DNA of 64,000 bases from Blasia pusilla. Taxonomy: Eukaryota. The notes beneath the pieces were generated by a model. That model saw only the letters and a program-made list of their open reading frames with translations, was not told the origin of the DNA and did not search any database. Location of the stretch: assembly GCA_050084515.1 (NCBI GenBank), contig CM114271.1, forward strand, positions 26,598,001 to 26,662,000. Direction: 5' to 3'. Positions 7,101 through 49,809 of the stretch are shown here, one piece after another (position 1 is the first letter of the stretch; each line of letters opens with the position of its first letter). Both the position numbers and the translations under genes were made by a program.

Positions 7101-7743
7101 TTTTGCTTGGCGATAGTTGCTTCGACGAGCCTCAGGGTGGAAGGAATAAACAAATAAATCCAACTTTTAAAACTCGAATGTTAGGGAGCTACTCGACTTT
7201 GAAGGTGACGCTCAGATCCTCCTGACCTCCTTGAAACAAGACGTACGTTTTTGCTAGGTGGCAGTTTTAATCCCCAATCCTAAATGTTTTAGGTTATTTT
7301 TTCCTTCTTTCCATCATTATCTCACTTGCGAGTCGGCGCCGTGTGTGGTGTGGTACGATTTGGAGCTGCGCAGTGAGAGGGCGCATGCGAAAGCAACGTT
7401 GAAGGACTTTGGAGGAGCTTTGGAGGACTTCAACAAAGCAGTGGAACTTCAACCCAATGACTCATTTTTTTTGCAGGAGAGGGGGGTCTTGAAGAGAATG
7501 ATGGGGGACTACGAGGGCGCATTGGCTGATCTCAACATGGGATTGGAATTGGCACCAAATGATTATGAACTGTTGAAGCACAGAGGATACGTCAAGTTTA
7601 TTATGGGAGAGGAGGAAGGGGCTCGTGAAGATGCGGAGTGGGCTATGAGGATCAAACCACTTGAAGTGGACGCCCCCACTTACAACGATTTTCAAAGTTT
7701 GGGGTACATGTCCGTAAAGTATTTAAATTATGAGTTAAAGTGA
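4179..7743 (+). CDS. STAND/NLR-like protein, NB-ARC + ARM-like repeats + C-terminal TPRs, no LRR; 4 exons; start codon uncertain
   Basis: Exons 4179 (or ATG 4308)-5093, 5293-6078, 6187-7064 and 7374-7743 join in frame via GT-AG introns of phase 0, 0 and 2; about 939 aa from ATG 4308. P-loop GGSGTGKS, Walker B VLVILDDVW, RNBS-B-like KYLVTTQ, GLPL-like GNPLAL, MHD-like WTLHSL. ARM-like SMIALGNV and VQTEAARGLS. TPRs such as EALADFDSAYALD, GALEDFNKAVELQP and GALADLNMGLELAP. Confidence 0.88.
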
Positions 7744-15200: not shown

Positions 15201-18200
15201 TTCTGGTCCGAGACCACTTCCAGAACTCTTGCATGCAGAAAAATGAGGCAATTTATCCACAGCCACATTGATTTTGGTAGTTCCCTGAGTAGTTCAAAAG
15301 CGTTGATCACGTGTCATGGGCACTCCCTGCAATATTTCCTTCTACTGTAAAAGAGCTTTGAAGACAATGAGCCACTTGTTTCCGCCAGGCCCACACTTGA
15401 CTGCTGCCAGCTAGTGCCACCTGCTCGACTTGGATAAACCAAGCTACTCTTAACTTGTCACAACATGTCATCAAGAAGAAATGACACGAGAGGTCATGAT
15501 AAGACGTACAGATGGCATGGGAAAAATATAGATTGCAGAAGTAGAAGAACAAAATGTAACTGTTCTACAACGCTGAAGGTCACTTCAGGCATCATTTCCA
15601 TCCGCATGAAATGGTCTTCAATAACTTAGACCATGAAAGGATCACGCTTTGAGAGGATTCTTATTGATCAAAGTTTGAGAGAGAGGGAAATTTAGGCATC
15701 CAGAGGTCCCAAAGAAATGGGAACATACTGATTTGTAGTCAATTGACTTCATTCCACTCACAAAATCATTGCCAAGAGCACCCGGAGGCATAAGTTTCTG
15801 CAAAAAAGCACGACAACCTCTTCGATGTGAAGTTTTACGGGGTAAGTACATTGAAGGTCATTAAGTTCCCCAAGAAATGAGACCAGCTTGTTCAACACAA
15901 CAATACACAAAATTGACTTACCAGAAATGTGACGTCTGGTGTGGCGTTCGACAGAATTTGGCTCCCGCCAATTTCTGTTCCATCCATTAGAAGGACCTGT
16001 CCAGAATCTATCTCAGAAATTCGATGTAACTGGGCTGAGGCGCATCATATCTCATCTTAACTCCATCATACTTAAGAATCATAGCATAGAATCAAAAGAT
16101 CAAAGAGAGCATATCCTGTAATATTAACCACACCAAGCCATCCTTTCCTGGCTATGGAGGACAATCTACGTTTAAAAAATTAGTGAGAAGGAGAGCCTAG
16201 TCAGGCAACCCGAAGAAACAAGGCCAATGTGCTGGATATCCTCAATTCAATAGGACTACGACAGCAATCCTGAACACCACTAAAGGATACCTCCATCAAA
16301 GTATATTTAGTGAGATGGAATCTATGGTTAGGATGTCTGTTGTGCACCATCTTGTCGCTGTTTCAGAAATCCCTATATTCTTGGCAACCTTAGACACAAG
16401 AAATCGTGAATTCATCCATTTTCTGTCCAATTCTTCGCCCCATGATGGTGAGAAAATACCGTACCCCTTTCACCATTGTGCTGATGCCCTGAGTTTCTGA
16501 TACCTCGTCAACCAGGAATTGCTTGATCTGCGGTCAAGGATTGAAATTTGCAAGTATCAAGCTCCGACTGTTTTACTTCAAACATTGTACGCTTACAGAG
16601 AAATCACTGGACATATAAACCACATTGTACATAAATGCATTATCATTGTACATTATTTGGTAGTCCTTGTTTTGTAGGGTTGGAAATTAATTAGTACAGC
16701 GAAACAAATCGGCAGATTGCTGATTGATAGTAGTCGATCTAAACATTGATCACACAGATCAACCCATACGGACGATCTAGATTAGATTAGGATCAATGTT
16801 CCGCTTATGACCATTGATTACTGCTAGTAACGTTTCAACTTGCGAAACGATACATAGCTCTGAGACATTTCTGAAGTGACACGGTTACCGTCACGTCTTT
16901 TGATTACGGCTCTTAGTTTAGCGCAGACTTTACTACTTATGTATCGGCTTTCAATCTATCAACATAGAGAACACAGAGAGTACAACCGCATTTTTCAAGT
17001 CATTCCGCAATTCTCACATGGTATCAGAGCCTGGTCGCTAGTCACTACTTTTACGGTTTTCAAGAAAGGATTGGAATTTGAGGGACGCTTCAACATACCT
17101 AGAGTAGAGGGGACACCTTCTGCTCAAACGCCTTTCTCGTTTCTGTTTCCTAGGTGGCTGCAGACTTCAGATTCTTACGAATTCGAAGTCCTTGACCCTT
17201 TTCTGTCACTTTCATCAATTCACAATGGTGAATACTAACATGTTCCTCAAGATCGACGACATCCGGAAATTTTACGGGACCTATTTCTATATTTGGCGAT
17301 TACGCATTAGATTGTACCTCGATGCCGAAGATCTTGCAGGCATCGTAGAAGGTATAACTCCAAAGCCAGCAGCGGCTACCGCTCCTGCCACCGGCGTTGG
17401 GAGTGTCCACGAATGGGAGATTCTCAACCGAATTGCCTCATCTTTCATAGCGAATCTTTGAGACAATTCGCAAGTTCATCATATCAGTTCCGCTACGACA
17501 GCAGCGGAAGCCTGGACGAAATTAGATTCTTTATACCAAGCCCAGGACGCTGTCACAAAAATGTATCTGCAAGATGAATTGCAGACTCTTAAGATGAGAG
17601 AAGGCGATAGCGTTACCAAACATGTCCATCAATTTAGGACATTAATTGATCAACTCCACGCTGTTGGAATGGTGACTACTGAAGAAAATCAGTATATTGC
17701 ATTGATGCATCAATGCCCAACAATTACCGCAATTTATTGCGAGGTCAGAGTAACCTCACTTTGCAATCTGTGATCACTTTCCTTCTTAGGGAGGAGAAAA
17801 TGATGAAGACGCAGACTGCTGAACCGTCCTCAGCTCTCTTTGTTGGACGAGGTTCTGCCCCTTTTCAATCGAAGTCCAAATTCGGCAATTCGAGGCAAGG
17901 CGGCTCGTTCAGAGGTTACGGTCGAGGCAAAGCTCCTCAGAAAGGCTTTGGTCCTTTCAAATCAGGATTTGTTCCTGCTTCTATGACGATTCCACATGGC
18001 GAATCGTCCAATCATCAAGCTGATTGGCAGGCTTCATCCTCCAATCAGCAGAACACTTATAAGAAAATGAAGTGTTTCTACTGCAATTTGCAGGGGCATC
18101 ATATTAAAGATTTCCAAAAACGTCTTGCAGTCCAGACTTTCTGCTCCTAAAGCCAATTTTACGTCTCATCTCTTCTTTACCGTCGCCTATTCGATTTCAG

Positions 18201-21200
18201 CTTCCGGAATTCAAGATAACACATGGTATCTTGATACAGGTGCTACGCATCATATGGCCTTCTCCATTGATTATTTTTCGGATTACACTCCTTATGAAAA
18301 ATGGTCGTATGTTTTTCTGGGTGATAATTCCTGTCTGGAGATCAGAGGCTCTGGTCAAGTAGAGATCCTTCTGACTAACGGTACTCGACACTTTCTTCAG
18401 AATGCCCTATATATACCAAACTTGAAGAAAAATCTTTCTCAGTCAAGCAACTAGACACGTCAGGAGGATCTACCTTGATTCATAAGGGACAGTGCGTACG
18501 CCGTGACTCTACAGACCAAATCATGACAACGTGTTTCTTAATCGATGATTTGTACAAACTCGGAGAAGCTGTTCTTCCACCCTCCCGATCTTCTATCATT
18601 TCAGCTGCTACTGTGGTTCTTCCTACGATTGCTGATCTGTGGCATCACGGTTTGGGACACATTAGTGCTGCTCGGATTTCTCAACTATTACAACAGCAAA
18701 TGGCTGGCGGTCTTCCAACGCATAGTCCCTCGCAGCTTTCTTCGTGTCGAGCCTGCCTACACGGCAAGCAGACCCACAAACCTTTTTCTAATAAGATTCC
18801 AGTCTATAGAGCCCTCAATGTTTTAGAATTAATCCATACTGACATTTGTGGGCCTATTTCTCCCCCTACTCATTTGGGTTTTCTCTATTTCATGGTTTTT
18901 ATTGACGATTTCTCCCGGTATACTACTGTTTACCTCCTCCATTACAAATCCGAAGCGTTTTCCCGTTTCACTCAATTTGTGGCTAATGTAGAGACTCAGC
19001 ATCAACCTCGACACATTCAGACATTGCGATCTGACAATGGTGGTGAATATAAGTCATCTGCTTTCTTAGACTTCTGCCATTCTCGAGGAATCTCCAGGCA
19101 GTTCACTGTTCCCCACACACCACAGCAAAATGGTGTTTCAGAATGTAAGAACAGAACTCTTAGAAACAAATGTACGTTCTATGCTTTTCCATTCCGCTCT
19201 CCCCAAGACTTATTGGGGTGAAGCATTGGTCACTGCCAATTATTTGCAAAATCGTCTTCCGAGCAAAGCATTGCCACTGTCCAAAACACCATATGAGTTA
19301 TGGTTTAATCGTAAACCTGTGTTATCTCATCTTCGTATTTTTGGAAGTCCTGCATTTGCTAAAATCAATGATCCTCATTCAAAGCTGGATTTTCGCACTG
19401 AGGAATGCATTTTCCTTGGTTACAGTGACCAAAGCAAAGCCCTGCGTCTCGAGAGGCTGAGAGACAAAACTATCATTCTCTCCCGTGATGCTGTAGTTCT
19501 TGAAGATCAGACTGCTCAGACCACTCCGTCGTTCAATTCTTCTGATGCAGAAGATCTGGCTATCAGATCTGATCCTCTATTTTTCCGCTCATCCCCTAAT
19601 CCTCAAACTTCCTTGCCTATTCCTGCTACCTCCCCGATTATTCCCTCAGTGGGAGCTCCCTCTCCTTCCATGTCTTCTTCAGTGGGAGTTAACCCTCTTT
19701 CAAGTCCGCCACAGCCAGAGGATATGCCTTCACCAACGGTCTCTTCCACTGCACACCCCATACCTGGTCATGGGCGTACCCATCTTTACTATGAAAGAAG
19801 ACAACGAGCTCCTACTCCTCCTCTTGCTCAAAGAAAAAGTCCTCGCATTACTCGGGCTGTTGAGCGTTACGATGCACTTATTGAAGCTGAGAAGAACAAG
19901 AAGTGAGCTGCAGAGAAGTGTTGGGCCTTGCTCTCTTCAACCAGTTCTTTTCTCGAACCCCAATCTTATGAAGAGGCTATCTCTGGACCTGATATTTCAC
20001 ATTGGAAGGCTGCCATTTCTGCTGAACTTAAGAATATGGCTCGAATGAAGGCTTGGACGATAGTTCCCCTTCCTCCTAATCAAAGCACAGTCGGATGCCG
20101 TTGGGTTTTTTAAATCAAACCTAATGTGGATGGCACGATCCACAAGTACAAAGCCCGACTTGTTGCTAAAGGATTTACTCAAGTTCCTGATCTTGATTAC
20201 GAAGAGACTTTTTCTCCTACGGTTAAGCTTCAATCTCTTCGTATTCTTATTACTATCGCTGCTTATTTCAATCTGGATTTACATCAAATAGATGTAATCG
20301 CGGCTTTTCTATATGGGTTCTTGCAACACAGGATCTACATGGCTCTTCCTCCCGGCTTGCCAGTTCCAAATAATAACTTGGTCTGCCTTCTAGGAAGATC
20401 CATTTATGGTTTGAAGCAATCAGCCCGTATGTGGTATGAAAGATGTCACTATGTTTTACTTCACATTGGTTTTGTCAGCACCACTGCTGACTCTAATACT
20501 TACATTCTAACCAGGGACTCCAATTTTCTTATCCTTGCTCTCTACGTGGATGATACTGTCATTACCAGCTCCAGTTCTGCATTGCTTCATTTTGTCAAAA
20601 GCAAGCTCCGCCAAGAGTTTGAAATGACTGACCTCGGTGAGGCTTATCATGTTCTGGGAATGCATATCCAGCGAGACCGGCAACAAGGATGGATCCGGCT
20701 CAACCAGACGACTTACATCACCAACAAACTCAAACAGTTCAATATGCTGGGCTGCAAACCTATCTCCACCCCCTTTGATTCTGGCCTTCATCTTAGTCAA
20801 GATCAATCTCCTGTTGATCCTGCTGACATTGCAGCAATGTCTTCTATTCCTTATAAAAGTGCTACGGGCAGTTTAATGTGGGCAATGGTGTGCACTCGCC
20901 CCGATATTGCCTATTCTGTTAGCACTGTTGCACAGTTCATGACCAATCCTGGTCCTATACACTGGACTGCTGTCAAACGTATTTTCAGGTATCTCCAAGG
21001 GACAAAACATTACTTTCTCCAATATCGGCGCTCATCTACTCCTTTTCATCTTCAAGGATATTCTGATGCTGCCTATGGAGACAATATCGACTCCAGAAAA
21101 TCTACTAGCGGATTTTGCTTTCTCCTTGCAGGAGGAGCAGTTAGCTGGGCAAGTAGAAAACAAAAGTCAGTTGACCTTTCCAGTACCGAGTCTGAGTACA

Positions 21201-24200
21201 TTGCAATGACTAAAACTAGCACTGAAGCTATTTGGATCAGAAGATTACTGTACGAAATTGGTTTTGCTCAGAAGATGACTGAGATCTTCTGTGAGAACCA
21301 GTGCTATTGCTTTGGTCAGTTCTACAAAACATCATGACCGCACCAAACACATCGACATTCAATACCACTATATAAAAGATCAAGTATCAAGTGGCGAAAT
21401 TATTTTGACCTATATTTCAACTGCAGAGATGACTGCAGACATTTTTACTAAGGGTTTACAGAAAGGACCTCATCAGAAACATACTAAATCTCTAGGTTTA
21501 ACTAGTAATGAAAATGGCTGATTTGTTCCCCTGAGTGGGAATGTTGGAAATTAATTAGTACAGCGAAACAAATCAGCAGATTGCTGATTGATAGTTGTCG
21601 ATCTAAACATTGACACACGGATCAACCCATACGGACGGTCTAGATTAGATTAGGATCAATGTTCTGCTTATGACCATTGATTACTGCTAGTAACGTTTCA
21701 TCTTGCGAAACGATACATAGCTATGAGACATTTCTGAAGTGACACAGTTACCGTCACGTCTTTTGATTACAGCTCTTAGTTTAGCGCATACTTTACTACT
21801 TATGTATCGGCTTTCAATCTATCAACATAGAGAACACAGAGAGTACAAACGCATTTTTCAATTCATTCCGCAATTCTCACATGTAGCTAGATCAAGTCCA
21901 CTTGATAAGTTTTCTCGTTACATGTTTTGAAATAACACATATTGATCTTAATAATATTGCAATGACCAAAGTGTCACCTGCACAGAGCAGTAATAATTGA
22001 AGATTCATAAATGATCTGTGTTTGGTTTCTACAAAACTCACGAAAGACCTTGAGGAATTTTAGAACTGGACATTTGTTCTGAGAGGTGGCTCTTTTCAGA
22101 TGAAAGATTGCAGACAGGCTATTCCATTTTGTTAGCATTTCATCTGCAGGTGATCATTTTCTTTCTGGGATGTTGAAGAAGAAGGCACTATCTAGAAGAA
22201 TCCTACATTGAATTGTTGAGAAGGATACTCTCCAAGAAATGAGAATCTTGATCTAGTTTAGCACCTTTCACATTTTAAGCTTGGGAATCCTATAAGATGT
22301 TGACTGTGCACATTAACTCATGTACAGTAGAAATATAGCTTGCTCATAGAAGTGGCAAAGAGATCCGAGTCCCAAAATAGGAAAACCAAGTCCTGCAAGG
22401 TCATAAGCAATGAAAGAAACTCTGGAAATGGTCTGCACCACTCCATGCACTTTTAGTGTCAGGTAATACCCATCAGTTACCCTTCAAGTGGAGACATATC
22501 ACAAAACGACCCTAATGTTCTAAACTCTCAATCTGTGGTAGTGTATATTGGCAGTGGATGTCAACATAAGGCAGAGTAATGCCTAAGTAATCCGTTAATC
22601 AGGATGTGGTAAAAAACATTCACATCCTAAAGTTCCTTGTTGAAAATGAGCCTCTCCAAGATCCTTCAATTTTTTATGGCCACAGCCATCAAACAATCCA
22701 ACGCACAAATTATCATTCCTATTCAGGCTCATAACCTGTTAGAAATGGAGGATAAGATCGAAAGAATATGATAAGTACTCTGAAATATAATTCGCTTACA
22801 GGAAGTAGGAAGCAGGCCAGTACTGCATGAGTCACTAATGACGTAGCAGCAGTGCAAGTTTAAGACCGTGTGAATCCTCAGTTCCATCAGAGACAGGTCA
22901 ACCTAGAGCTATCTAACCAGAATTAATAGCTGCATCTTAACAAGTTTATGTGTAACACTTTTATAAGACAGCATATTTCAGACCCATACTGAAGTATGAG
23001 CTTGTACAATACTATGTTTGGCATGTATACTTAGAGATGGTCCAAAACAAGGGGCAAAGGCAAACAGTCCGAGTATGGTTGCCAAGTATATGAAAATATC
23101 CTCCAGAAAGCCTTGCTAGAGAGTTGCCCAAAATCCAAATCTCTCCCCAAAGCCTTTTAATAACTCAGGTATTTCCTTGATAAGGCTGAATTGGAGTGAA
23201 ATCTAGGGAAGCCCAGCTTCATGGACTCTCTCGACAAGAGGAAGAAAGGATGTACCTCTGCGTTGGTGACTAGAGTTGCCCCTGCTTCATGTGCCGCTCG
23301 AGCTATCGCCAAGGAGACGCTCCCCATTCCTCCCTCTACATATCTGGTACATGCGGGACCACCTCAAAATCCCATCATCATTAGCTATCTATATTACAAT
23401 TGAAGGAAGGGAATTTCTTCTATGGAGTAAATTTGTCTCGAGAAGGAAATATCAGATAGCATCTTACCTTTTTTGTCACTCAATCTGTGAGTGTAAATCC
23501 AATTTTCCGAACCATTAAAATTGACAATTTTTGTTTAATTAGATGTCATTGCTAGAAGGATGGCGGTACCATGCTACTAGTGAGGATGCCTATGCCATAC
23601 CCATGTATGCTTGATATTAGTTTACTAAGTCAGAATAGGTTTTAGAGTTGTCAAGTTTATGCCAAACATGCAAATTTGGCCGTTTTTCTTAGATTCAGTA
23701 CTACACCTAAGTGTGACCATACATAAAGCCTCAAACTCGTATGCCTCTGCAACAGTGGCAGCAGAAACCAGCACTGCACAAAGGGACCATTCTACGCGAT
23801 CAAGTGTCCGGTAATCTTTCAATATGAGGGTCTTGTGGTTTGTGGGTTATCCATGAAAAAATTAGCTGTCACAGGAAACTTGAGACACTTTTAACACAAC
23901 CTTGAAATACTTTCTGAGCATCACAGTTTCTTCCCACAATGGAAGATCTTTAAGAGAAAAAACACTTGTGTGGGCTTCCACATTTAATATCAGATAAGTA
24001 CACTCGATCGGTTAACACACCAAAATCACCCTCCCTCCTCGAGTGTCACGAATAGGAAGGAACTACATTAAAGTTTTGAACCAGTACTTGTCTCTGTTTT
24101 CTAGTAGCAAAATGGCTGAATGACGTAAACAATGAATTCATGAGGGTCTTCAAATATTTTCACCAGCACAGATAACTGATCGAGCTTGTCCATGATATTT

Positions 24201-31253: not shown

Positions 31254-34020
31254 TAGAAGGAGCTAGCTGAAGGGAAGATGGAAGGACCAGCACAACATGA
31301 GCAGACCAGCACACCATGCATAAGCCAACACACTATGGGCAAGTCAACACATCAAGCGAGCACACTATCACCACAATTACCATAACCAAAACTAACAAGA
31401 ATGGTTAAGAAATAACTAGTAATCTAATTAAACTAGGAGATTTTTAACCATGGTGAACTTCCAACCATGATTTGTAGAACTAACCATAGTTAAAACTAAA
31501 TTTAAAAAATTAAAATAAAGGAAAGGTTTAGAATAGCAAAAAAATTTATATGGAATCCTAACACTCCCACCCAAGGAAAATTTGTAATCCCAATCTTGCT
31601 CAAGCATTTTGTATGCTTGATAGATGACAATGATTTGGTGAGGAAATTAACTGCCACATCTTCAGTCCCAATAAACCTTATGTCAATCTCAATCCCCATC
31701 AGATCTCTGATGAAGTGGTGAAGAACGTTGATATGCGCATGCTTAATTCTCACATGATGAATTGGATTATTGCAAAGTGCAATAATTTCTTGATTATCTC
31801 TACAGAAAATTGTAGGTCCTCTCGATATTGGAGAGAAAGTAAGGAAGCCACAAATTTCAAATTTTAACTCCCACTGTAAGTGATATGTCTCTTCTGGTAC
31901 AAATAGCAAGATAAGGAACCATAGACATATCTTCAATCTCCTTCTCAGATTTAGCACACATGGACTTGTAAAGTTTTAGGCTTGGTTCCATAGTAGTAGA
32001 AATAGGCTTATAATCACTCAATCTAAACTTTGCTACGATACTCTTCGTGAAATTATATTGATGAATTGTGATGGTACTAGCCAAGAAATCCCTTGTTGTA
32101 TTGATTCCTAAGAGAGCCTTGGAAGCTCCCAAATCAACCATCTCAAAAGCCTCTTGTAGCCCACGCTTCTGCTCTTGGAAACGGGTGCAAACGTCTCCTT
32201 GAAGTCAAGTCCTTCAATTTGACTAAAGCCTTTCACCATAAGTCTAGCTTTGTACTTGAGGACTTGATAATCTTGATCCCTCTTGGTCTTGTAGACCTAC
32301 TTACTTCCGACAATCTTCCGGATGCGGGGCAGATTGACCATTTCCCAAGTGTGATTTGATTCATGAGACTTGAGCTTTTGCTTCACAGCTTTCTCCCACT
32401 ACTCCCAATCAACACTCTCTTGTGCCTCCTTTTAAGATGTAGGGTTAGCTTCTTGAAGATCTATAGTACAGTCTAACCCGACATTGAATTGAGAGCACAA
32501 ATCTATAAGTTTTTGTTGCTAATTTAATTTTGGGTGTTTTGAATCAAGAATTCTTGATCAAATCCCAACCTCACAATTTTTTAGTTGTCTTGTTGGACCT
32601 TTGGACTATTTATGGCTCCTTAGCAATATTGTCACTTCTTTGCTACACAACTTCCTCAAGGGGAATGACAACTTTAGCGGTAAGTCCTTCATCAACCCGC
32701 ATAGAAGTAGAGGAGAGATCTGTATTTTCTTCATTCACTTCGGAATCTTCAAGCATATACTCAAGAGTAGTAATTGGATTGGCAATTGACTCCTCAAACA
32801 TAGAAGTTGGAACTTGATTTTCATTGAAGATGAAAGATGTAGGGTTAGATTCATGAAGATCTATAGCAGAGTCTAACACAACATTGAATTTGGAGCATAA
32901 ATCTATGAGTTGTTGTAGCTGACTTAATTTTGTGTGTTTTGAATTCTTGATCTGCATTTTCTTCACTCACTTCAAAATCTTCATGCACATAATCAAGATT
33001 TGTAATTGGATTGGCAACTGGCTCCTCATACACAAAAGTTGGAACTTTAATTACATTGAAGATAATATCCATGCTCTTGATAATCTTCTTGGTGGCAAGG
33101 TTGTACATACGATACCCCCTACAATCTGGCAGAAGGCCAAGATGAATGCAGCTCAAAGATCTAGGATTTAATTTCTTTCTTTGATCCTTAGGAATAAGAA
33201 GAAAAGCTTCAACACCAAACACTCGAACCATAGACATACCAAGATGTCTTCCTGACCATGCCTCTTTATGGGTTTTGACTGCTTGAGCTATGGTAGGAAT
33301 AAGATTATATAGGAGATTTGCAGACATGGTTGCCTTAAGCCAAAATGCTTTGCTTAACTTAGAATCAGCAAGTATGTCATTGGTCTTGGTGACAAGCGTA
33401 AGTTTTATTCTCTCTGCCACTCCACTGCCATTATTTAGAAATATCTCTTGCTGAAGATTGAGGTATGATCCCTTTTTCAACAAGACATTTTACAAACTCT
33501 TGGATGAAGAATTCTTGACCTCCACTTTATTTAAAAATCTTGACTTTCTTCCCAATTTGAGTTTCTCCCCAATCAACTAATGCTTTGAACTTGTGTGTAA
33601 CTTCTCCCTTTAGTTTGAGGCGGAACACAAAATATTTCCTTGTACAATCATCAAAAAACATAGACATAATATAAGGCATCTCCAAGGGACTTAATCTTGT
33701 AAGGACCATAGACATCACTGTGGATCAAGCCAAGCTTGGGCTCAAAGCTAAACTTCAATGATGTAGGAAAGCTTCTCTTGTTGTGTTTTCTCTTGATGTA
33801 GAATACATAGAAAAATTTGATAAGAAACAATGAACTTTGTATCTGTGGTAAGTTGTTAAAGATGCCTCATACCTTCTGCACTTAAATGCTCCAACCTTCT
33901 ATGCTAGAATAGGAAAGTTTACTCAACTTTGGCAAGGTTGGCCTTAGCCTTCATGGTACAAGTTCCATCAAGGTGGTAAAGAGATCCGCATGGGAATAAG
34001 CGAGAATAAGCATCACTTGT
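30900..34020 (-). mobile_element. Decayed Ty1/Copia fragment (INT, RT, RNase H) with 3' LTR
   Basis: Minus-strand remnants FFDDCTRK, RKKLNPRSLSCIHLG, KYKARL, MVDLG..LLGI, NPIHHVRIKH. PPT GGGTGGGAG is followed by the LTR start TGTTAG at 31563. The other LTR end (about 30900) and the right boundary are approximate. Confidence 0.85.
31213..31248. repeat. (GA)18 microsatellite
   Basis: Direct read. Confidence 0.95.
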
Positions 34021-37304: not shown

Positions 37305-39150
37305 AAATGGTAAATGGTAAATGGTAAATAGATCAAGCCCGTGGGACCCAAAGGGTCAAAATTCTGAAATACACATTACAAGTCATTCATTCACTGACCC
37401 AGAAAAAGATCCTAAAGACCTTCTCCTAGCTACAGCCCAGAGCACTTGAGCGATGAATAATGACGTCCCTAATATAACTACCTAAATTATAAGGCACTAG
37501 ATGTAGTAAAGAAAAAAAATTCTCCACATCTATTTTATGAGCTAGTCTAATCTCTTCATACCTTGGACATGTAACAAACACATGCTCTTCATCCTCAATA
37601 TTTTCTCCGTCACATAACCTACAAATTCGTTTGCTTCTATCAATATTAAACCATCGTCCTTCCTCAATTTCTAGCCTATGAGACCCAGTTCTATGTCGTG
37701 CGATAATATGACGTAAGAACGTGGAGATCCCCGCAAGTAGGTATCCTTGTTCACAATATACAAGCATAAGATTAACATGAATTTGATAAAACTCCATTTT
37801 GGTGCCCGGCCGCTCCAAATAATGTTGAGAAATTGCTTCAGAGATGCTCATGATCGGTTTCAAGTCCCAATCGCGTCCGCCACATTCCACTTTGAAGACC
37901 AAGTCACCACATCCACCATCCACCCCTAACGCGTGTGGCTCGCAAAGCTTGATGAGGGAGGCAAGAAACATCAAGAGATCTCACCCTTGCGATGTAAGTG
38001 ATGGTCAAGTAAAGAGTTTCAGCCTCTAGAGGTAGACAACCTGTTTTCGCAAGAAGAATAGCATACGGAGTTTGGTTTATTACACCCAATTCTTCTTGTA
38101 GAAAGATCTTTTGCACACTCTCCACGCGCTCCCAACATGTCTTCTTACAACTACGGCCCCAAACTTGGGTTCCATATAAGACCATCGGCAACACTAAGCT
38201 CCTAAATAAGAATTTCTTAAGACCCCAAGACACAAGATGAGCTCTTCTACACCGGTTTAAAAATGAATATAGAGCTTTGTAACTAGCTTCTACTCTCTTT
38301 TGCACGCAAAGTGCCCAACTATAGTCTTGAGAGAAATCGATGCCTAGATATTTGTAACTCTTCATTTGTTCTAATTGTAGACCTTTGTAAAAGAACGAGA
38401 ACTTGGATCTAGTATCCACTATAATGACTTTAGACTTCTCCATATTAACCTCCATCTGATTCTGGGTACAAAACCTTGCCAAAATGTCAAGGTGTTTTTG
38501 TAAACTAATGCCATCACGTGCTAGTAATATGATATCATCTGCATACAATAGAGCTTTGATGACAAAGTCCCCAAGCTTGAAACCTTCACTATCACATTCC
38601 TCCAACCATTTTTCAATATCATCTATGAAAACTCCAAAGAGATTAGGGGAGAGAGGGCAACCTTGAATGACTCCGATTGTACTCAAGATCTCTTGAGTTT
38701 GTGAACCTTTGATCTTGGCCCGAACGGAATGGTATAATGTGGCCATGGCTACTAGGAGATTTGGTGATACTCCAATGGCTTGCAGCCTTTCCCATAAGAG
38801 CTCACGAGGTACAGTAAAATCAAAAGCTTTCTTGAAATCGATGAAACCGCAAAACAAAGCTTTTCCATTGCCCTTAGATTTCTCCCATAAAACACGCAAG
38901 GCCAAGATATGGTCGATGGTGTTGTATGTTGGGCGAAAACCAGTTTGGACCCGTGCTCTGTTTTGGAAAGACTCTGTCCATGAGCTCAACTTTGACTCTA
39001 CCAATTACCCAAACAACTTGGCAAAAACACTACCCACCATGATAGTGCGATAGTTTGTCACCAAGTCCTTCCTTCCTGATTTGTAAATAGGAACAATCTC
39101 CCGTAGCAACTAGGTTGAAGGAAAACCATAGATAGCAGCATCACCCAATA
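37305..39150 (-). mobile_element. 5'-truncated non-LTR retrotransposon (RTE-X-like LINE), RT plus C-terminal Cys/His domain
   Basis: RT motifs QTGFR, FIDFKKAFD, GVIQGCPLSPNLF, LLYADD, YKYLGI. C-terminal RTGSHRLEIEEGRW...RICRLC...EDEEHVFVTCPRY. 3' tail (AAATGGT)3 on the + strand at 37305-37325. Frameshift near 37940 and in-frame stop at 39005-39007. Clade assignment is by eye; right boundary approximate. Confidence 0.88.
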
Positions 39151-42430: not shown

Positions 42431-44637
42431 CTTTGAGAATGGAGTGGCATGCAAAGATTTTCACGTTTTCCCCGTTCTTCGTTTGCCTCTCGTACACGTG
42501 ACCTGCGAGGTCTTGGTTTGAAGTCGTGTACAGTCGTTGTATCAAGTCTTAAAGGCATCCCCCGAAGAAATTTGAGGTTTGCTGCAGATCAAGCTGGTAC
42601 TGGTTTCGTTCCCGCTCGGTTAGAATGTGATATGGCGTTCCAGTTCGGTTTGGAATCTGATTTGCCAGTGCGAGACGGAGCTCTATAGCACTGGCAGAAA
42701 CGACTATGCGAGCCCCACTGCTCATCATTGAGGATTACTCCGCTTCGTCAGAGTTGTTATTTCGATTTGTTCTGTAGGAGCAATGGAGTGTTGAAGTTCA
42801 TTGATGCAGCAAAGATCTCTTACAGGAATTCGTATATTCGTGCTCTAAAAGGATCGCTGCGCGAGACCATCTTACCCCGAACAGAATTCTCGGAAAGAGT
42901 AATGTAGTCGAGAAGCATGGCATTGATGAGGAAGCTTTTCCCTTCTTAGAACGTGGCTGCTCGATTGAAGTTCTACAATATTCGAAATCCATGTTACATT
43001 CAAGTTTGCCTTGGCCTCACACATCTCTCGTGAAGTTACGACGTCCCTAAACTCTGTTCAGTGTCAAATTCAAATATTAGCAGATTTGCGTGGATGTTCG
43101 AATAGGTACATCTTAAAAACGACCTTCCGCGCACATCCCAATTCCACTGTGATCTTAATCTGAAATTTGAATCTAGTATTTTAGAAGGGATCCCCTCTCC
43201 AAATAGAGATCACTTAGTATCTCTGTAGCAACCCCGCTCTCCTAATATAGATTACTTGAAGCTAGTAATCCGCGCCCGTGGACAGAATCAAGCCTTAAAT
43301 GAATTTAAAGCCTTCTAATTGGGAAGACTTAGCTGCAGATTGGCGCTGTCTAAGTCTGTAAAATCGCAACATCGATTTCGAAATCAACGACCACTTTCAA
43401 GACCCTCATCTTAATCTTCTTGAGCAAATCAGCTGAGGTGAAGGAATACGCCATCATCGTCGCTCCATACCAAATCTACGCTCTCACCGACCCACGACCC
43501 GATCGATTCCTAACTAACCATATCCCTCCACAATACGAAGAAGCTGTCGGAAAGTAAGAATGTCCCCAAGGCGTGATGGTGAACGAGCGAATGAGCCTCG
43601 CCCGCGAAGGGAGTCATGCAGAACATTCAATCCACTGGTTACGGATATCCTTTCACCTGTTCCACCGTGGCTACCGTCAACGTCAGCGAGTTGACTGCCC
43701 GGCTTACAACGGGCAGGCGCCTTGGAAGCATCTTCTGACGCGATGAAGCGGGGCCTACAACGCAAATCCCGATTGCTGTGGCTCTCCGTATTCGATACTC
43801 ACCGAATCGATTCGTATGTTATTGGTGCTGAGAATGGGAGAATCGTCAGGGAGACACGAGACACGGAAGTTTGACTCGGAGAGAATGCAGTCGCCACTAA
43901 ACCTCCCCAAATCCATTCCGCTTCTGGTTCTTTTTCACTTTGACCGGAATTTTCTATGACCCAAATCCACTGCACCAGGAAGGGTCGAAGACGTGTACCG
44001 TCTCGATATTTATTCCGAGTTCCAATGCAGGGGAGAATTCAAGCTTCCATACTGGGGGATTATGTCGATGATTGGTAAGGTTATAATCTAAAGATAATCG
44101 CCCCACCAACTAAGGCCATGATGGCGCGTGACACGACTTTGGGCCCATAAAGTGAACGTATAGCTTTGACCAGACTTCGCACGATTGTGACGGGACGAGA
44201 GTCTTTCCTTCATCGGACCGTGACGGTGTCAAAAGGAGAATCCTTCCCTATGTTGTTGTCCCTCGTGCAAGAAACACTCGCATTTTCGTGGATCGAGATT
44301 GAGATTCCCGGGCGTTCGGTGTGTTGGCCTCAACACAACAAGCTGCGAAAGAGTCTCGTAGGAAAGTGGAGTTTCAGGTATGTCTTCTTTAGCCTGCAAG
44401 AATGCGATCCGATTTTTCGGATAACGGCGAAGCTTTGGTTTGAGGGAGATCAAACTTGATGCAACACACATCGGGGAATCGTCATGTATACAGTAAATAT
44501 GAAGGTGCGGCCCAGATCTGGCGGGAGAGTTCCACTGTAGGATAGTTCTTTGACGCCAAACAACGTCCAAACACAGTGGCTGTGCCGAGGAATAGTCACC
44601 AAAGGGGAACAGACAGGAATGAGTAGGAATGAGAATC

Positions 44638-47600
44638 ATGGACTCGAAAAGGCGACTTTTGGTGATTGCGCAAGCGGTGTTGTTGATCAGTTACTTGGAG
44701 CAGTACTTGTGCGATGATAATAACGAGACAATCATATGGAGTACAGATCTCTGGTCGAACTACCCCAACAATACCTACACAGTACCTCCTAAAAAATCCC
44801 CGTTCGTAATCTGTAAGTGCTCGTTCACCGCTGTAGTGAGAGATGTTGATTGAATCTTTCTTGAGAAGTTTTCGTGTCTACGCTAACAGTATATCAAGGT
44901 GTGTTCGAGTTTCACAAAAGATCAGTGTCATGGTAGGTCCTGGAAAAGGTGAGAGCAGAAGTCGTGAACGGCTTTGCTGAGATGAATTATTTTCCTAGAT
45001 CCTGTGGCGCTTGTGGTCTCGCTCTATTGAAGCGCTTCCTTCCGACACAAATATCCCAGGGAGGATGTTCTTTCTGTTGATGAACCCCAGAGAAAGCATA
45101 GCGTTGAGTTCTTGCGAGCTTTATCACTTAAGCTTGGCTTCTCCGCCGTTCCCCTCTACATGGAGGCGATGTTAGAGGAGCATTCTTTGAGATGGTTTGG
45201 TTGAAAATTCTTAAGAAAATTGTCCACTGCACCGATCTCCCATGTAGAATAGATATGTCGACCAGGGCTTGTGATATACTGCACTGTCGTGCATTTCGGT
45301 TGTTTTACAAGCAGATTTGGTCGAGATAGTATTTGAAGAACACGACCGACAACACTCATCAGCTATGTTAAGAAGCAATTACGAGCCAAGCTTGAGGACC
45401 TCCTCCAGCACTACCTATCATTTAAACGCTTTTCTGTTGACCACCTGTCAATACCCAGATCTGACTCCAATTAACTGGTGCATATCGAATAATTGTTTGA
45501 TATTTTCAGCAACGTCGATTTTGATCTCCTCTGAAGCTCACTTTGAGGAACTCCCCTTCCTAACTCTCAGGAATGGCATGAGCCGTATTTGGAGAGATCA
45601 ACCTCCTGAAGAATATTGTCCTCGTTGAAGATTGAATCTGCCAGACACAGATGCTTGATTTGAAACGTTTCTTCCAAATTTGAACTCCTCTCGAAGCGTA
45701 TGAGCGAAGGCCGGCCCTTATCTCGTAAACATTCTTGGGGGATTTATTTAATGCCAGTTGCTTCCCTCCTCTTCCAGGTTGGATAATGTCTCTTGCGATC
45801 AAGCCTTCTTCGTCCCTTCAAGAAAAAGCATGCAGTGTGGCAGATTTCGATTGTTTACACTGTTTTGTTTCTCTGAAAGAATAGGAGTGGGTGATTTTTT
45901 CTAGCAAGTGCTGACTTTATAGACGCGCTGTGAGCCAATGTTTCGTCCCTTTTCCCTAAACGATTATCAGCCCTTTTATCGGATGGATAGCAAATCCTAG
46001 CGAAGAGGAGATCCGCATCCGTTTTGGATGCCTGTCTCTGGCGAGGAATGCCTTCATATCTATTTTTAATGTGGAGTCAAACTGTTTTAACATCGTATTA
46101 AAAAAAATCTGCATAAGACTCTTCCTTCGATTTACTCATTAAGTAAGGTCACAATAATCCTTACGTCTTTTTCCTGCCTTCGTTAAAATCCTGGAATATT
46201 GTTTCTCTTATCGTGTGATCGAAGCAACGCTACACGAGTAAGTCGTTGAGATCAACGACTGCCATAAGACACTGTAAAGCAGAGCGTAATCGCTGTTGAA
46301 GCAGGTAATCATCATGGAAGGGATTCACAACAACAGCAGGACGCATTCTGCAACAACGTTTCATAATTCTAGATGTGTGGGGACGTCAGTATTCAGTCCA
46401 GATAAAAATGTGCACATCAAAGTATGCAGTACGTGATCGGAAAGGTTTTCTAGGTCACTAACATCATCTCCCGCAGTCATATGTCTAATAACTATGTTTT
46501 TCGGCGCTGTCTTCATTTTGCAGTGTTCGAGTACCCGGTTGGTGTGTTAAACCAGTTGCCGCCTACAGTTTTGGAAGTGTCTGTCGACGATGCAAGGCAG
46601 TGCAGGTCTGGGAACGCAACAAGTAGGCAGATGGGGTACCAGATGGCAAGCAGCTGGTATTTCAACTTCACTTTCAGACCAGATATATACATGGAAATCG
46701 GCTTTATCGATCTGGACTACAAATCCTGTAATGACGGCATGAGATTGATAGTGCAAATCGACAGTCCTATATTACTGTCCCAGGCTACTCCGCCAATTTC
46801 GAGCAAGAAGTCGAGCAAGAATTCAGAACCAAAGGGGCTAGCTTTGGGTCTTGGCATAGCTAGTGCATTCCTAATGGTAGTCGGTTTAGTAGTTGGGATG
46901 GTGGTGAGGAAAAAGTACTGGCACCGGATGAGAAAGGTTGACACAGGAGAGTTTTCTCCGGTAAAGGAGCTTTCAGACCTCGAGTTTGGGGGCCCTCACC
47001 AGTTTACATTCAAAGATCTAAGTGCAGCTACTCAAAGCTTTAGTTCGAAGCACGTGGTGGGAGAGGGGGGTTTCGGCACCGTCTACAAGGGAATACTTCG
47101 CGACACGGGCAGCACTGTGGCTGTGAAGCGACTGTCTCAGTATGCCAGGCAGGGTGCCCGAGAATTCATGGCCGAAGTGAAAATAATCAGCCAGCTACGT
47201 CATCGAAATCTAGTACAGCTTCTCGGGTGGTGCTACGAGAAAGATGAGCTAATTCTGGTTTATGAGTACATGCCAAATGGCGATCTCGATGAACTGATTT
47301 ATGCAGATAATCCCAAATGTCCTCTTTCATGGAAGCAGAGGTTCAGCATCCTGTCTGGAGTGGCCACTGCGTTGGTTTATCTGCACGAGGAGTGGGAGCA
47401 ACGCGTGGTGCACAGAGATGTGAAAACAAGTAACGTCATGCTGGATTCCGCATTGAACGCCCGGCTTGGAGATTTTGGCCTCGCACGTCTCTCAGCACAC
47501 AGTCAGGCCCCCCAGAGCACTCTCGTGGCAGGGACTCTGGGATATCTCGCGCCTGAGTTCAGTCTGTCAGGGAGAGCCACAGATAAGACGGATGTGTATG

Positions 47601-47914
47601 CCTTCGGTGTCGTAGCTCTGGAAGTCGCCTGCGCCAGACGGCCCCTGACCCCAGACTGTATCCTGGTCGATTGGGTGTGGGACTTGCACAAGGACGACAA
47701 AATCCTCGAAGCCATAGACCCGAGACTCGACGTGAGGAGCACCGACGATGAGACGCAAATGAGAACCGTCCTCCAGGTCGGTCTGCTGTGCGCCCATCCT
47801 GATGTAGCAGCCAGGCCCTCCATGCGGCAGGTTCTCAACATCCTCGCCGGCGACGCACCCATGCTTCGAGTCCCGCGATCGAAACCCGTGGCCTACTACG
47901 CGGAATTCGGATAA
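44638..47914 (+). CDS. Receptor-like kinase: signal peptide, phytocyanin (cupredoxin/ENODL)-like ectodomain, TM, L-type-lectin-clade RD Ser/Thr kinase; 2 exons, 521 aa
   Basis: Exon 1 is 44638-44812 (alternative ATG 44629; donor GTAAGT, phase 1). Exon 2 is 46524-47914 (acceptor TTTGCAG, phase 1); total 1566 nt in frame. Signal-like MDSKRRLLVIAQAVLLISYLEQYLC. TM 46835-46906 followed by RKK. Kinase motifs GEGGFG, VAVK, HRNLVQLLGWC, YLHEEWEQRVVHRDVK, DFGLARL, GTLGYLAPE. The kinase call is firmer than the ectodomain call. Confidence 0.88.
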
Positions 47915-49809
47915 CTCTCTCCGTCCGTGTGGAGGGCGGACCGCGCGGCTAACGGATTGGATTTCATGCTTGTGGTAATGTACTCCTGCAAATGTATTTG
48001 CCATCTTTCTTAACCTGCAGGGCGATTCATGTCTCTCTCTCTCTCTCATTCTCTGAATGAGTTCTCCTCTCCTCTTCAGTGAAGAAGGAGAATAAAACGC
48101 AAGGTACGGTTGAAAGTAGCGTAGATCCTAACGAACTCCTGTAAAATAAACATGGAAGTAAACGCTATTAGTTGCCATAACCGTATTTCCAACCCTAGGT
48201 CGTTTGTAGCCTCCCGTCTTGTTATTTGTTCCGACGGATATTAAGGTATGTATGTGCTGAAGGAACCGAGGCGGTCTCCCGCGGGAAGACCGCTGTAAGC
48301 GCATGTCAGGTTAGTAGGTAGGTCACCTAAGGTTAGTCGTAGCGCTTCGGTTTAGTTTAAGCCGGCTGATTAATTTATTTAATTTACTGTACCTGTAGGT
48401 GAAGTCTCATAGGAAACATGAGATTGCCATGTGTGACCCCTAATCGGAGAGGTCCAATAGGAGAACTTCTCTATGTCATTTAGACTTGTTGTCTAGTTTA
48501 GATGACATCAAGCTAGAAGAACGAGGACCGCCCCCTCTTTTTTTCCCTCCGGTGGATATTTCGCAAGTTCCCTGAATTCCCATATCTTACTTGATTTCCG
48601 ATCATACCCAATAGAAGTTTGGACCAAATGTGGCGGATCTTATTGTCGAAGGTGCAAAAGTGGACGTTTCATTCTACTAAGCTGAAGGTATGGGAGTATG
48701 CACACGACTAGCATTCCTTCAAAGTTGTAGTGTCATCTCGTAGAAGATTATATCCATGTTATCAACTTTGTCATTTCCCGAGAGATGTAAAGTGGTGTAT
48801 AAGCACTGACTGCCCTTGTATGTGTCGTCCGAATTCTTTTTCCATTTCAGAAATTATCTCTCTATTGTTCCACACCAAGAAAATTTTATTTCTAGCTTGT
48901 GTCATCAAATTTCCATGTTCATTTTGGTTTCCGTCATTTTCGTTGTTCACTTTCTTGGTGCATTTCATCAACAATTCAAAAACCACCTGAAAGATGTCAT
49001 TAAACCTTGTTTACTTTTTGGGTGTATTTCATGAACCTAGCTAGAACATGCCATTAAACAAGTTTCTAAGACACGTACATAAATGAGTGCCTCTAAATCA
49101 TACATCATTGCGTGAAAGTATTCTCCTCTAAGAGAGGAGGGATGGATGGATGGAACATATGTCCGTCTTCCCCTTATGTGGTCGAGTTACCTCATTCTTG
49201 GTTCTTCGCCCATCTATAGAGCCCGCCTCTATGCATGGGCAACCCAATGCTCTCTTCTCCACATGTCTTCTCCCTTCCAGGTTTCCTCCATTGATGGTTT
49301 ATGTTGTGTTCCTTTATTAACCATCCAAGATCTTCATATATAGATATGTAGGATTGGAGACTTAAGTCACCTTCACATGGTACAAATTTGTGAGTCTTCA
49401 AAGAAATAAGGCCAAGAAAATAACAAGACAAATCTATATTCACATCATTTTGTGCAACCACTTGTGTTGTTATTAGAGAATTTAGGAGATTCACTTTACT
49501 ATACAAAAAAATCACATAAAATAACAAGGAAAATCAAGATCCCAAGAGGGGAAGGAGGCCAAAAATGCAAAAAGAAATGGCAAAAGTCAACACATCATCA
49601 TGTTTACATGAGATAATGCTCATACCCTTTGCATCAATAGATTCCCAACATATAAGATTGGGCACACCTAGAAGAGAAGGTTAAGGAAGTCTAAAGTATA
49701 TTAGCAATGCTCTCTAGAATATACTTTATACAAAGAAAAACTGGCACCATAGTAGGATTCAAAAGAAGCCAATGCTAAAGAAGTTCAATATCTTGGAATG
49801 AAGCTTTTG

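What the first reader, a model, noticed from the sequence alone, without database searches (positions are those of the whole stretch)
44638..47914. Receptor kinase with a phytocyanin (cupredoxin)-like ectodomain on an L-type-lectin-clade kinase
Seen: the spliced ectodomain is only about 110 aa and reads DDNNETIIWSTDLWSNYPNNTYTVPPKKSPFVIL|FEYPVGVLNQLPPTVLEVSVDDARQCRSGNAT...WYFNFTFRPDIYMEIGFIDLDYKSCNDGMRLIVQI, followed by a Ser/Pro/Lys linker, a TM helix and an intact RD kinase. Established: phytocyanins follow the pattern W...Y...LxFxY...hxVxEV...C...C..GMKLxVxV with one disulfide. The kinase signatures (GPxxFxxKDL, LLGWC, YLHEEWEQ.VVHRD) are typical of L-type lectin RLKs, which normally carry a legume-lectin domain of about 250 aa. 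Inference: the lectin was swapped for a phytocyanin fold. Phytocyanins are usually secreted or GPI-anchored, and I do not recognise this fusion among the standard RLK ectodomain classes, so it may be an undescribed receptor type.
Basis: partly seen in the sequence, partly recalled or inferred. Interest (0 to 1): 0.82.

Follow-up and report, generated by a model that had tools for sequence, protein, structure and literature searches.

The report
Liverwort receptor kinase with phytocyanin-like ectodomain
This is a real, expressed liverwort receptor kinase whose outer part is a strongly diverged, copper-free relative of plant phytocyanins mounted on a lectin-receptor-type kinase, a rare design that databases have counted but nobody has studied.

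Summary
The gene is real. RNA-seq reads from three runs confirm the 44812/46524 GT..AG splice. The spliced product has 521 aa: signal peptide, an ectodomain of about 115 aa, a Ser/Pro/Lys linker, one TM helix and an intact RD kinase.

Pfam finds no Cu_bind_like domain in either exon product of the window. The kinase sits in a clade (SH-aLRT 100) of liverwort RLKs without a lectin domain, nested among liverwort L-LEC kinases. Three Calypogeia fissa members of that clade carry Pfam Cu_bind_like above cut-off. An HMM of their ectodomains matches window residues 72-140 (17.8 bits, E 1.8e-7; 0 of 500 shuffles reach it).

A moderate-confidence model of the exon-2 part matches phytocyanins best. The ectodomain has no histidine, so it cannot form a type-1 copper site and is ENODL-like. 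Its N-terminal 40% is not detectably similar to phytocyanins.

The architecture is not undescribed. metaRLK lists about 78-93 Cu_bind_like RLKs among about 311,581 RLKs of 508 species, none characterised.

The parts
44400..44637 (+). 5' UTR (partial; the transcript begins upstream of 44400). Alternative in-frame ATG at 44629, stop TGA at 44620.
   Evidence: RNA depth is about 19-37 in bins 44400-44647.
44638..44812 (+). Exon 1 coding part: signal peptide (about residues 1-24) and the N-terminal third of the ectodomain. It ends in codon phase 1.
   Evidence: Translation is. The exon has 175 nt, so phase 1, and the donor is GTAAGT. The junction is confirmed by reads.
44813..46523 (+). Intron of 1711 nt, GT..AG, phase 1, lying inside the phytocyanin-like domain.
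   Evidence: The joint 44812->46524 is seen in 29, 24 and 32 reads in three RNA runs and in one contig. Intron depth is 0-3.4.
46524..47914 (+). Exon 2 coding part: the rest of the ectodomain, linker, TM, juxtamembrane region, kinase and stop codon.
   Evidence: The ORF and translation are. RNA covers it to about 48022.
46562..46768 (+). Residues 72-140: the part of the ectodomain that matches the phytocyanin-like domain profile (its C-terminal 55-60%), including the Cys85-Cys127 pair.
   Evidence: HMM of 8 liverwort phytocyanin-like domains: 17.8 bits, E 1.8e-7; 0 of 500 shuffles reach it. hhalign local E 8.9e-5. Both Cys columns are invariant in A1.
46832..46912 (+). Transmembrane helix, residues 162-188.
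   Evidence: Hydropathy scan gives a mean KD of 2.59.
47042..47839 (+). Protein kinase domain (RD type), spliced residues 232-497.
   Evidence: Pfam Pkinase E 7.3e-48 on P0001 residues 173-438. The catalytic motifs are present.
47915..48022 (+). 3' UTR. RNA reads carry one extra A behind 47975 relative to the window.
   Evidence: Depth and X2 record 5 reach 48022. The insertion is seen in 20 of 27, 23 of 26 and 32 of 36 reads.

Best explanation
A two-exon, transcribed gene encodes a single-pass RD receptor kinase of a liverwort lineage derived from L-type-lectin receptor kinases. It falls in the same lectin-less clade as Marchantia MpRLK-Pelle_L-LEC2. In this lineage the legume-lectin ectodomain has been replaced by one phytocyanin-like (cupredoxin-type) domain of the copper-free, ENODL-like kind.

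In this species the domain is strongly diverged. Its C-terminal 55-60%, the disulfide pair and a phase-1 intron inside the domain are still recognisable. The N-terminal 40% is not.

Inferred mechanism, not shown: the glycosylated beta-sandwich binds an apoplastic or cell-wall ligand, or a partner surface protein. The model for this is GPI-anchored ENODL14/15, which associate with the receptor kinase FERONIA. Binding would be passed on through the intact kinase. The ectodomain evolves fast, as sensing surfaces of lineage-specific receptors often do.
For: Shown:
- The splice and expression are confirmed, and the ORF, TM and kinase motifs are intact.
- In a 41-row kinase tree the window groups with 5 Marchantiopsida and 8 Jungermanniopsida-type lectin-less RLKs (SH-aLRT 100). 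This clade sits inside a group with liverwort lectin-bearing L-LEC kinases (SH-aLRT 90). The M. polymorpha member is named MpRLK-Pelle_L-LEC2.
- 3 of 12 clade relatives scanned (P0023, P0026 with two domains, P0070) pass Pfam Cu_bind_like, with 25.3, 36.2 and 38.1 bits against a cut-off of 20.8.
- An HMM of 8 such domains, built without the window, hits the spliced window ectodomain at 17.8 bits, E 1.8e-7. 0 of 500 shuffles reach this score; the highest shuffle score is 7.5. hhalign gives E 8.9e-5.
- A profile of the window row plus 6 relatives hits only phytocyanins in the PDB: 5 of 5 hits at E<=10, best mavicyanin at 9.4e-11.
- The mature ectodomain has no His and only two Cys. Both Cys sit in the invariant disulfide columns.
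- The intron is phase 1, and a conserved phase-1 intron in the phytocyanin domain is reported in PMC4499708 (passages).

Basis for the functional analogy: the ENODL14/15-FERONIA interaction is described in PMC6726743 (passages).
Against: - Pfam gives no Cu_bind_like hit on either exon product of the window, even at E<=10.
- phmmer of the exon-2 ectodomain against 1.84 billion representatives found only a spurious repeat protein.
- Single-sequence search against the PDB gave only chance hits with E>=0.71 and no phytocyanin.
- The ESM Atlas gave no usable hit.
- Residues 23-71 do not align to the first 53 profile columns.
- The five Marchantia and Riccia clade members show no similarity to the profile.
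- Ligand, partner and signalling role are inference only.
Confidence: 0.75

Rival explanations
1. The ectodomain descends from a phytocyanin-like domain but is now vestigial. The protein works as a short-ectodomain kinase or co-receptor scaffold, and the outer part no longer binds anything specific.
For: - The N-terminal 40% of the domain is unrecognisable.
- The Marchantia and Riccia members have lost all detectable sequence similarity to the profile.
- Between the window and the RNA-seq strain, 6 of 7 fixed coding differences change the residue. None of these 6 lies in the kinase domain, and 5 lie in codons 17-172.
Against: - The Cys pair is kept, as are four N-glycosylation sequons.
- Predicted beta structure is present.
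- The frame is open and the splice is precise.
- The M. polymorpha ectodomain still folds in silico as a beta sandwich, with pLDDT 73.7.
- Fast change is equally expected under diversifying selection.
Confidence: 0.15
2. The ectodomain is an unrelated small beta-rich domain. The resemblance to phytocyanins is chance plus shared composition.
Against: - The profile match has E 1.8e-7, with 0 of 500 shuffles reaching it.
- The match is to the ectodomains of the nearest kinase relatives, at the same place in the protein.
- Both Cys are conserved.
- Sequence and structure searches agree on the phytocyanins as top hits.
Confidence: 0.05
3. It is a copper- or redox-sensing receptor. The metaRLK preprint suggests this by listing Cu_bind_like among metal-binding ectodomains.
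For: The domain family includes type-1 copper proteins.
Against: A type-1 site needs two His, one Cys and Met or Gln (PMC4499708). The window's ectodomain has no His at all, and its only two mature Cys align with the disulfide pair. The profile consensus of the relatives also lacks His and Cys at the columns aligned to the mavicyanin loop. Which mavicyanin residues are the ligands is recalled, not taken from a call.
Confidence: 0.02

Closest known systems
Calypogeia fissa RLKs with Pfam Cu_bind_like ectodomains (P0070 = CAM6091643.1, P0026 = CAM6114917.1, P0023)
   Same: Same kinase clade, with 60-68% kinase identity. Same order of parts: signal peptide, phytocyanin-like domain, Ser/Pro-rich linker, TM, kinase. 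The disulfide Cys pair and the C-terminal strand motif are shared.
   Different: Their domains pass Pfam's cut-off and the window's does not. P0026 has two domains. Their linkers are much longer. They are unnamed products with no study found in the searches.
MpRLK-Pelle_L-LEC2 of Marchantia polymorpha (P0006/P0124, MARPO_0019s0090) and its M. paleacea and Riccia counterparts
   Same: Nearest relatives by kinase, at 85% identity over 304 residues. Same length class, no lectin domain, one TM.
   Different: Their ectodomains show no sequence similarity to the window's or to the phytocyanin profile. The AF2 model of the M. polymorpha ectodomain is a beta sandwich with only weak, non-specific cupredoxin-like matches.
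Early nodulin-like proteins (ENODLs), the copper-free phytocyanin subfamily, such as ENODL14/15, which interact with FERONIA
   Same: Phytocyanin-type domain with the disulfide pair but without copper ligands, followed by a Ser/Pro-rich stretch and sitting at the cell surface.
   Different: ENODLs are GPI-anchored or secreted and have no kinase. Here the domain is joined to a TM helix and a kinase, and it is far more diverged than a Pfam-recognisable ENODL.
L-type lectin receptor kinases (LecRKs, RLK-Pelle_L-LEC)
   Same: The kinase domain nests among liverwort lectin-bearing L-LEC kinases, with 58-65% identity.
   Different: No legume-lectin domain (PF00139) in the product and no lectin-coding remnant found by tblastn self-search of the window. 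The ectodomain is about 115 aa rather than the roughly 250 aa of a lectin domain (the latter figure is recalled).
metaRLK 'pECD' class Cu_bind_like
   Same: Same architecture class: a Cu_bind_like ectodomain on an RLK. It is listed as not previously reported with RLKs (preprint section 7) and counted at about 78-93 in metaRLK 2.0 supplement files 8, 10 and 12.
   Different: Only counts are given. No species, clade, copper-site analysis or function appears in what I could read. A Pfam-based catalogue would miss the window's protein because it has no Pfam hit.

Membership tests
Phytocyanin-like domain (Pfam Cu_bind_like, PF02298) | Match to the Pfam model above the gathering score | tested here: not met
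   No hit at E<=10 on the exon-1 product, the exon-2 product or the 85-aa exon-2 ectodomain. The spliced ectodomain as one piece could not be submitted to the family library.
Phytocyanin-like domain (Pfam Cu_bind_like, PF02298) | Significant profile similarity to domains that are themselves members | tested here: met
   HMM of 8 domains from 7 relatives, 3 of them Pfam-positive: 17.8 bits, E 1.8e-7 on residues 72-140. 0 of 500 shuffles reach this score. hhalign gives E 8.9e-5 with probability 60%. Only the C-terminal 55-60% of the domain is covered.
Phytocyanin-like domain (Pfam Cu_bind_like, PF02298) | Two conserved disulfide-bridged Cys | tested here: met
   Cys85 and Cys127 fall in the two invariant Cys columns of alignment A1. 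They are the only Cys of the mature ectodomain apart from Cys25 at the signal-peptide end. The feature is as stated in PMC4499708.
Phytocyanin-like domain (Pfam Cu_bind_like, PF02298) | Eight-stranded cupredoxin beta sandwich | tested here: inconclusive
Phytocyanin-like domain (Pfam Cu_bind_like, PF02298) | Conserved phase-1 intron inside the domain | tested here: inconclusive
   The window's intron is phase 1 and lies inside the domain. PMC4499708 reports a conserved phase-1 intron in most phytocyanin domains. Its exact position is in a PDF figure I could not see, so the position was not compared.
Copper-binding phytocyanins (plantacyanin, uclacyanin, stellacyanin) | Type-1 copper ligands: two His, one Cys, one Met or Gln | tested here: not met
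   There is no His anywhere in the ectodomain. There is no free Cys beyond the disulfide pair.
ENODL subfamily | Phytocyanin domain lacking copper ligands | tested here: met
   Same evidence as the row above. ENODLs 'cannot bind copper' (PMC4499708).
ENODL subfamily | Secreted or GPI-anchored protein without a cytoplasmic domain | tested here: not met
   A TM helix at 162-188 and a kinase domain follow the ectodomain.
L-type lectin receptor kinase (RLK-Pelle_L-LEC) | Kinase domain groups with L-LEC kinases | tested here: met
   In the tree of 41 rows, the window's clade sits with liverwort lectin-bearing L-LEC kinases (SH-aLRT 90), inside an ingroup separated from 4 outgroup kinases (95). The nearest named relative is MpRLK-Pelle_L-LEC2.
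L-type lectin receptor kinase (RLK-Pelle_L-LEC) | Legume-lectin ectodomain (PF00139) | tested here: not met
   No PF00139 hit at E<=10. RNA-seq shows no further exon between 44400 and 48100.
Active RD Ser/Thr protein kinase | Gly-rich loop, VAxK Lys, HRD, DFG and APE motifs | tested here: met
   All are present at residues 238, 257, 355, 375 and 401. Pkinase E 7.3e-48. Catalytic activity itself was not tested.

The most novel reading that the evidence does not exclude
All lectin-less members of this liverwort kinase clade descend from one ancient fusion of an ENODL-type phytocyanin gene, with its phase-1 intron, to an L-LEC kinase. The result would be a hard-wired, one-chain version of the ENODL plus receptor-kinase partnership known from Arabidopsis. 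Its ectodomain has since diversified so fast that only some lineages, including this species and Calypogeia, still show its origin. If so, these receptors offer a direct genetic and biochemical route to finding what copper-free phytocyanin domains bind.
Probability: 0.35. Interest if true: 0.65.

Novelty: new member of a known kind. Interest (0 to 1): 0.5.

Why it matters
ENODL-type phytocyanins are widespread surface proteins, and their binding partners are largely unknown. The reviewed Arabidopsis case lists the ligand of ENODL14-FERONIA as unidentified. A lineage in which such a domain is fused directly to a kinase gives a read-out for what the domain senses, through phosphorylation and mutant phenotypes. 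Its closest named relative is in Marchantia polymorpha, which the papers found here describe as a model plant.

The case also shows ectodomain replacement within the L-LEC kinase family, followed by rapid ectodomain decay. In addition, it shows that Pfam-based RLK catalogues will undercount this class, because the window's protein and 9 of 12 relatives scanned have no Pfam ectodomain hit.

Tried and rejected
- Whole-genome search of the window's own assembly: no genome is held.
- Word-indexed homologue search with ectodomain residues 1-110 of the exon-2 product: none at E<=1.
- The same kind of search with P0070 residues 25-145: only P0070 itself. The wider distribution of the architecture could therefore not be mapped here.
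- phmmer of the 85-aa exon-2 ectodomain against 1.84 billion representatives: one hit, P0123. It is a tandem-repeat protein with no relation and was rejected as spurious.
- ESM Atlas feature search: no usable hit.
- Single-sequence PDB search: 9 chance hits (tryptophan dioxygenases, Kir channels) with E>=0.71.
- tblastn of the spliced protein against the window: no paralogue or extra exon; other hits have E>=1.6.
- Sequencing-run index: no RNA holder listed. Three raw-read RNA runs with the same species label were laid instead.
- Global hhalign of the whole ectodomain: probability 1.9%, not usable.
- Literature searches for a described phytocyanin or Cu_bind_like receptor kinase found only the metaRLK listing. 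The metaRLK 2.0 main text does not mention it, nor does PMC10834447.
- Lectin-remnant idea: rejected, because there is no PF00139 hit.
Full report
**Observation.**
- Exon 1 runs from the ATG at 44638 to 44812 and is followed by GTAAGT. Exon 2 starts at 46524 after a pyrimidine tract and CAG, and runs to the TAA at 47912-47914. The joined frame is open for 521 codons.
- I laid three raw-read RNA-seq runs carrying the same species label (X8, X9, X10) and one contig set (X2) on 44400-48100. The only joint reported is 44812->46524, GT..AG, skipping 1711 nt. It has 29, 24 and 32 reads from 13-22 distinct start places, plus one contig.
- Exon bins have depth of about 8-48 and intron bins 0-3.4. Most first mates lie on the - strand, which fits a + strand mRNA.
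- The transcript begins upstream of 44400 and ends near 48022.
- A second in-frame ATG lies at 44629, directly after a TGA at 44620, so the protein may be three residues longer.
- No exon that could add a lectin domain exists in this interval.

**Anatomy.** The product has these parts:
- a hydrophobic N-terminal leader;
- an ectodomain with four N-glycosylation sequons (residues 29, 44, 89, 106) and Cys at 25, 85 and 127;
- a short Ser/Pro/Lys linker;
- one TM segment at 162-188;
- a kinase domain (Pfam Pkinase E 7.3e-48) with GEGGFG, VAVK, HRDVK, DFG and APE all in place.

**Direct tests of the phytocyanin idea on the window's own sequence mostly fail.**
- Pfam gives no family at E<=10 for the exon-1 product or for the 85-aa exon-2 ectodomain, and only kinase-type families for the whole exon-2 product.
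- A word-indexed search of 5.8 billion proteins with the ectodomain found nothing.
- phmmer against 1.84 billion representatives found one spurious repeat protein.
- phmmer against PDB sequences gave only chance hits.
- The ESM Atlas gave no usable hit.

**Relatives rescue the idea.**
- A search with the whole exon-2 product listed 120 best hits. The closest are lectin-less liverwort RLKs:
  - Marchantia polymorpha P0006, whose cluster mate is named MpRLK-Pelle_L-LEC2;
  - M. paleacea;
  - three Riccia proteins;
  - six Calypogeia fissa proteins;
  - two unnamed Logan proteins.
- Of the 120, precomputed Pfam shows PF02298 (Cu_bind_like) in three, all from Calypogeia. My own scan of 12 clade members confirmed those three above the cut-off of 20.8 bits: 25.3 bits, 36.2 bits with two domains, and 38.1 bits. 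The other nine had no ectodomain family at E<=1.
- By alignment, the four remaining Jungermanniopsida-type proteins clearly share the same domain.
- An HMM built from 8 such domains of 7 proteins, without the window, hits the spliced window ectodomain at 17.8 bits. For this single comparison E is 1.8e-7. The match covers residues 72-140 and both Cys.
- None of 500 shuffles of the window ectodomain reached that score; the highest shuffle score is 7.5. hhalign in local mode gives E 8.9e-5 and probability 60% for the same stretch.
- A profile of the window row plus six relatives hits exactly five PDB sequences at E<=10, all phytocyanins:
  - mavicyanin 9.4e-11;
  - stellacyanin 2.1e-10;
  - umecyanin 6.9e-7;
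  - cucumber basic protein 1.4e-5;
  - plantacyanin 0.16.

  This result is driven by the relatives, not by the window row.

**Limits of the homology.**
- Residues 23-71, meaning all of the exon-1 ectodomain part and the first dozen residues of exon 2, do not align to the first 53 profile columns, although the lengths agree.
- The five Marchantia and Riccia counterparts do not match the profile at all.

**Structure.**
- Only unspliced translations can be folded, so I folded the 85-aa exon-2 ectodomain with alignment A1. The model has mean pLDDT 65.8 and pTM 0.57.
- The Foldseek top nine PDB matches are all phytocyanins, with E 0.04-0.48, probability 0.85-1.00 and TM about 0.5. Ephrins and plastocyanins follow.
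- These scores are middling. The model lacks about 30 N-terminal residues, and its alignment came from phytocyanin-like relatives. I count the fold as consistent with the reading but not as proven.

**Kinase phylogeny.**
- I took 40 of the 120 listed hits: all 13 lectin-less liverwort-type proteins, 18 lectin-bearing proteins, 5 annotated S.2-like and 4 outgroups. The other 80 were left out. With the window row this made a 41-row tree (quick IQ-TREE, SH-aLRT only).
- The window, the 5 Marchantiopsida proteins and the 8 phytocyanin-type proteins form one clade (SH-aLRT 100). It sits with liverwort lectin-bearing L-LEC kinases (90), inside an ingroup separated from the outgroups (95).
- Kinase identity is 85% to Marchantia, 77-79% to Riccia, 60-73% to the phytocyanin-type group and 58-65% to liverwort lectin-bearing kinases.
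- This fits one replacement of the lectin domain in a liverwort ancestor. One tree with sparse sampling does not prove a single origin.

**Copper.**
- Phytocyanin type-1 sites use two His, one Cys and Met or Gln, and ENODLs are the subfamily that cannot bind copper (PMC4499708, passages).
- The window's ectodomain contains no His at all.
- Its two mature Cys fall in the disulfide columns.
- The domain is therefore ENODL-like. The 'metal-binding' reading in the metaRLK preprint does not apply here.

**Intron.** The intron is phase 1 and lies inside the domain. PMC4499708 reports a conserved phase-1 intron in most phytocyanin domains. I could not compare positions because the figure is a PDF that was not available to me.

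**Variation.**
- All three RNA runs differ from the window at seven coding sites.
- Six change the residue: I17S, K53Q, L67S, P148T, S172G and G521A. One (S209) is silent.
- None of the six lies in the kinase domain.
- The numbers are small, but they fit a fast-evolving outer part on a conserved kinase.

**Mechanism (inferred).** ENODL14/15 are GPI-anchored and interact with the receptor kinase FERONIA, and the ligand is listed as unidentified (PMC6726743, passages). By analogy, I propose that this ectodomain is a binding module for a wall or apoplastic component or for a partner receptor, and that the intact RD kinase passes the signal on. Nothing here tests binding or signalling.

**Novelty.**
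- Five full-text searches found no study of a phytocyanin-ectodomain receptor kinase.
- metaRLK 2.0 supplement files 8, 10 and 12 list PF02298 with counts of about 71-93. The earlier metaRLK database held 311,581 RLKs from 508 species (abstract in the search listing). The metaRLK 2.0 main text does not discuss the domain.
- The architecture is therefore catalogued, rare and uncharacterised. The window's gene is a diverged member that a Pfam-based catalogue would miss.

**Verdict.** It is overstated on novelty, and the domain is only partly recognisable.

Noticed in passing
window 4164-7743 (+): Four consecutive ORF pieces encode an NB-ARC domain (E 3.7e-9 and 4.2e-6) followed by TPR repeats (TPR_1 E 1.8e-13) instead of LRRs. 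This looks like an NLR-like gene with a TPR C-terminus, probably with introns.
   Followed up: partly
window 22-1408 (+): PIF1-like helicase fragments (E 4.8e-34) in broken frames, most likely a Helitron-type transposon remnant.
   Followed up: partly
window 17683-21337 (+), 32851-33489 (-), 37426-39004 (-): There is a Copia-type retrotransposon with gag_pre-integrase, rve and RVT_2 in shifted frames. There is also a second retroviral-polymerase SH3-like fragment and a LINE-type RVT_1 reverse transcriptase. The receptor gene lies in a transposon-rich region.
   Followed up: partly
window 44687, 44794, 46548, 46790, 46862, 46975, 47910; also 44479, 44564 and an extra A behind 47975: These are fixed differences between the window and all three RNA-seq runs. 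Six of seven coding differences change the residue, and all six lie outside the kinase domain. The rest are UTR differences. This suggests another strain and a fast-changing ectodomain.
   Followed up: partly
P0006 / P0124 (M. polymorpha MpRLK-Pelle_L-LEC2) and P0007-P0009, P0012: The ectodomains of the Marchantia and Riccia counterparts have no Pfam family and no similarity to the phytocyanin profile. They keep three invariant Cys and fold in silico as a beta sandwich (pLDDT 73.7) with weak, non-specific cupredoxin-like matches.
   Followed up: partly
window 45268-45887 and 46136-46507 (inside the intron): Sparse same-strand RNA reads (depth up to about 3.4) lie inside the intron. They may be unspliced precursor or a repeat and were not examined.
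   Followed up: no
P0026 (Calypogeia fissa, 764 aa): This relative carries two tandem phytocyanin-like domains and a very long Pro/Ser/Gln-rich linker before the TM helix. It resembles a chimeric arabinogalactan-type ENODL joined to a kinase.
   Followed up: partly
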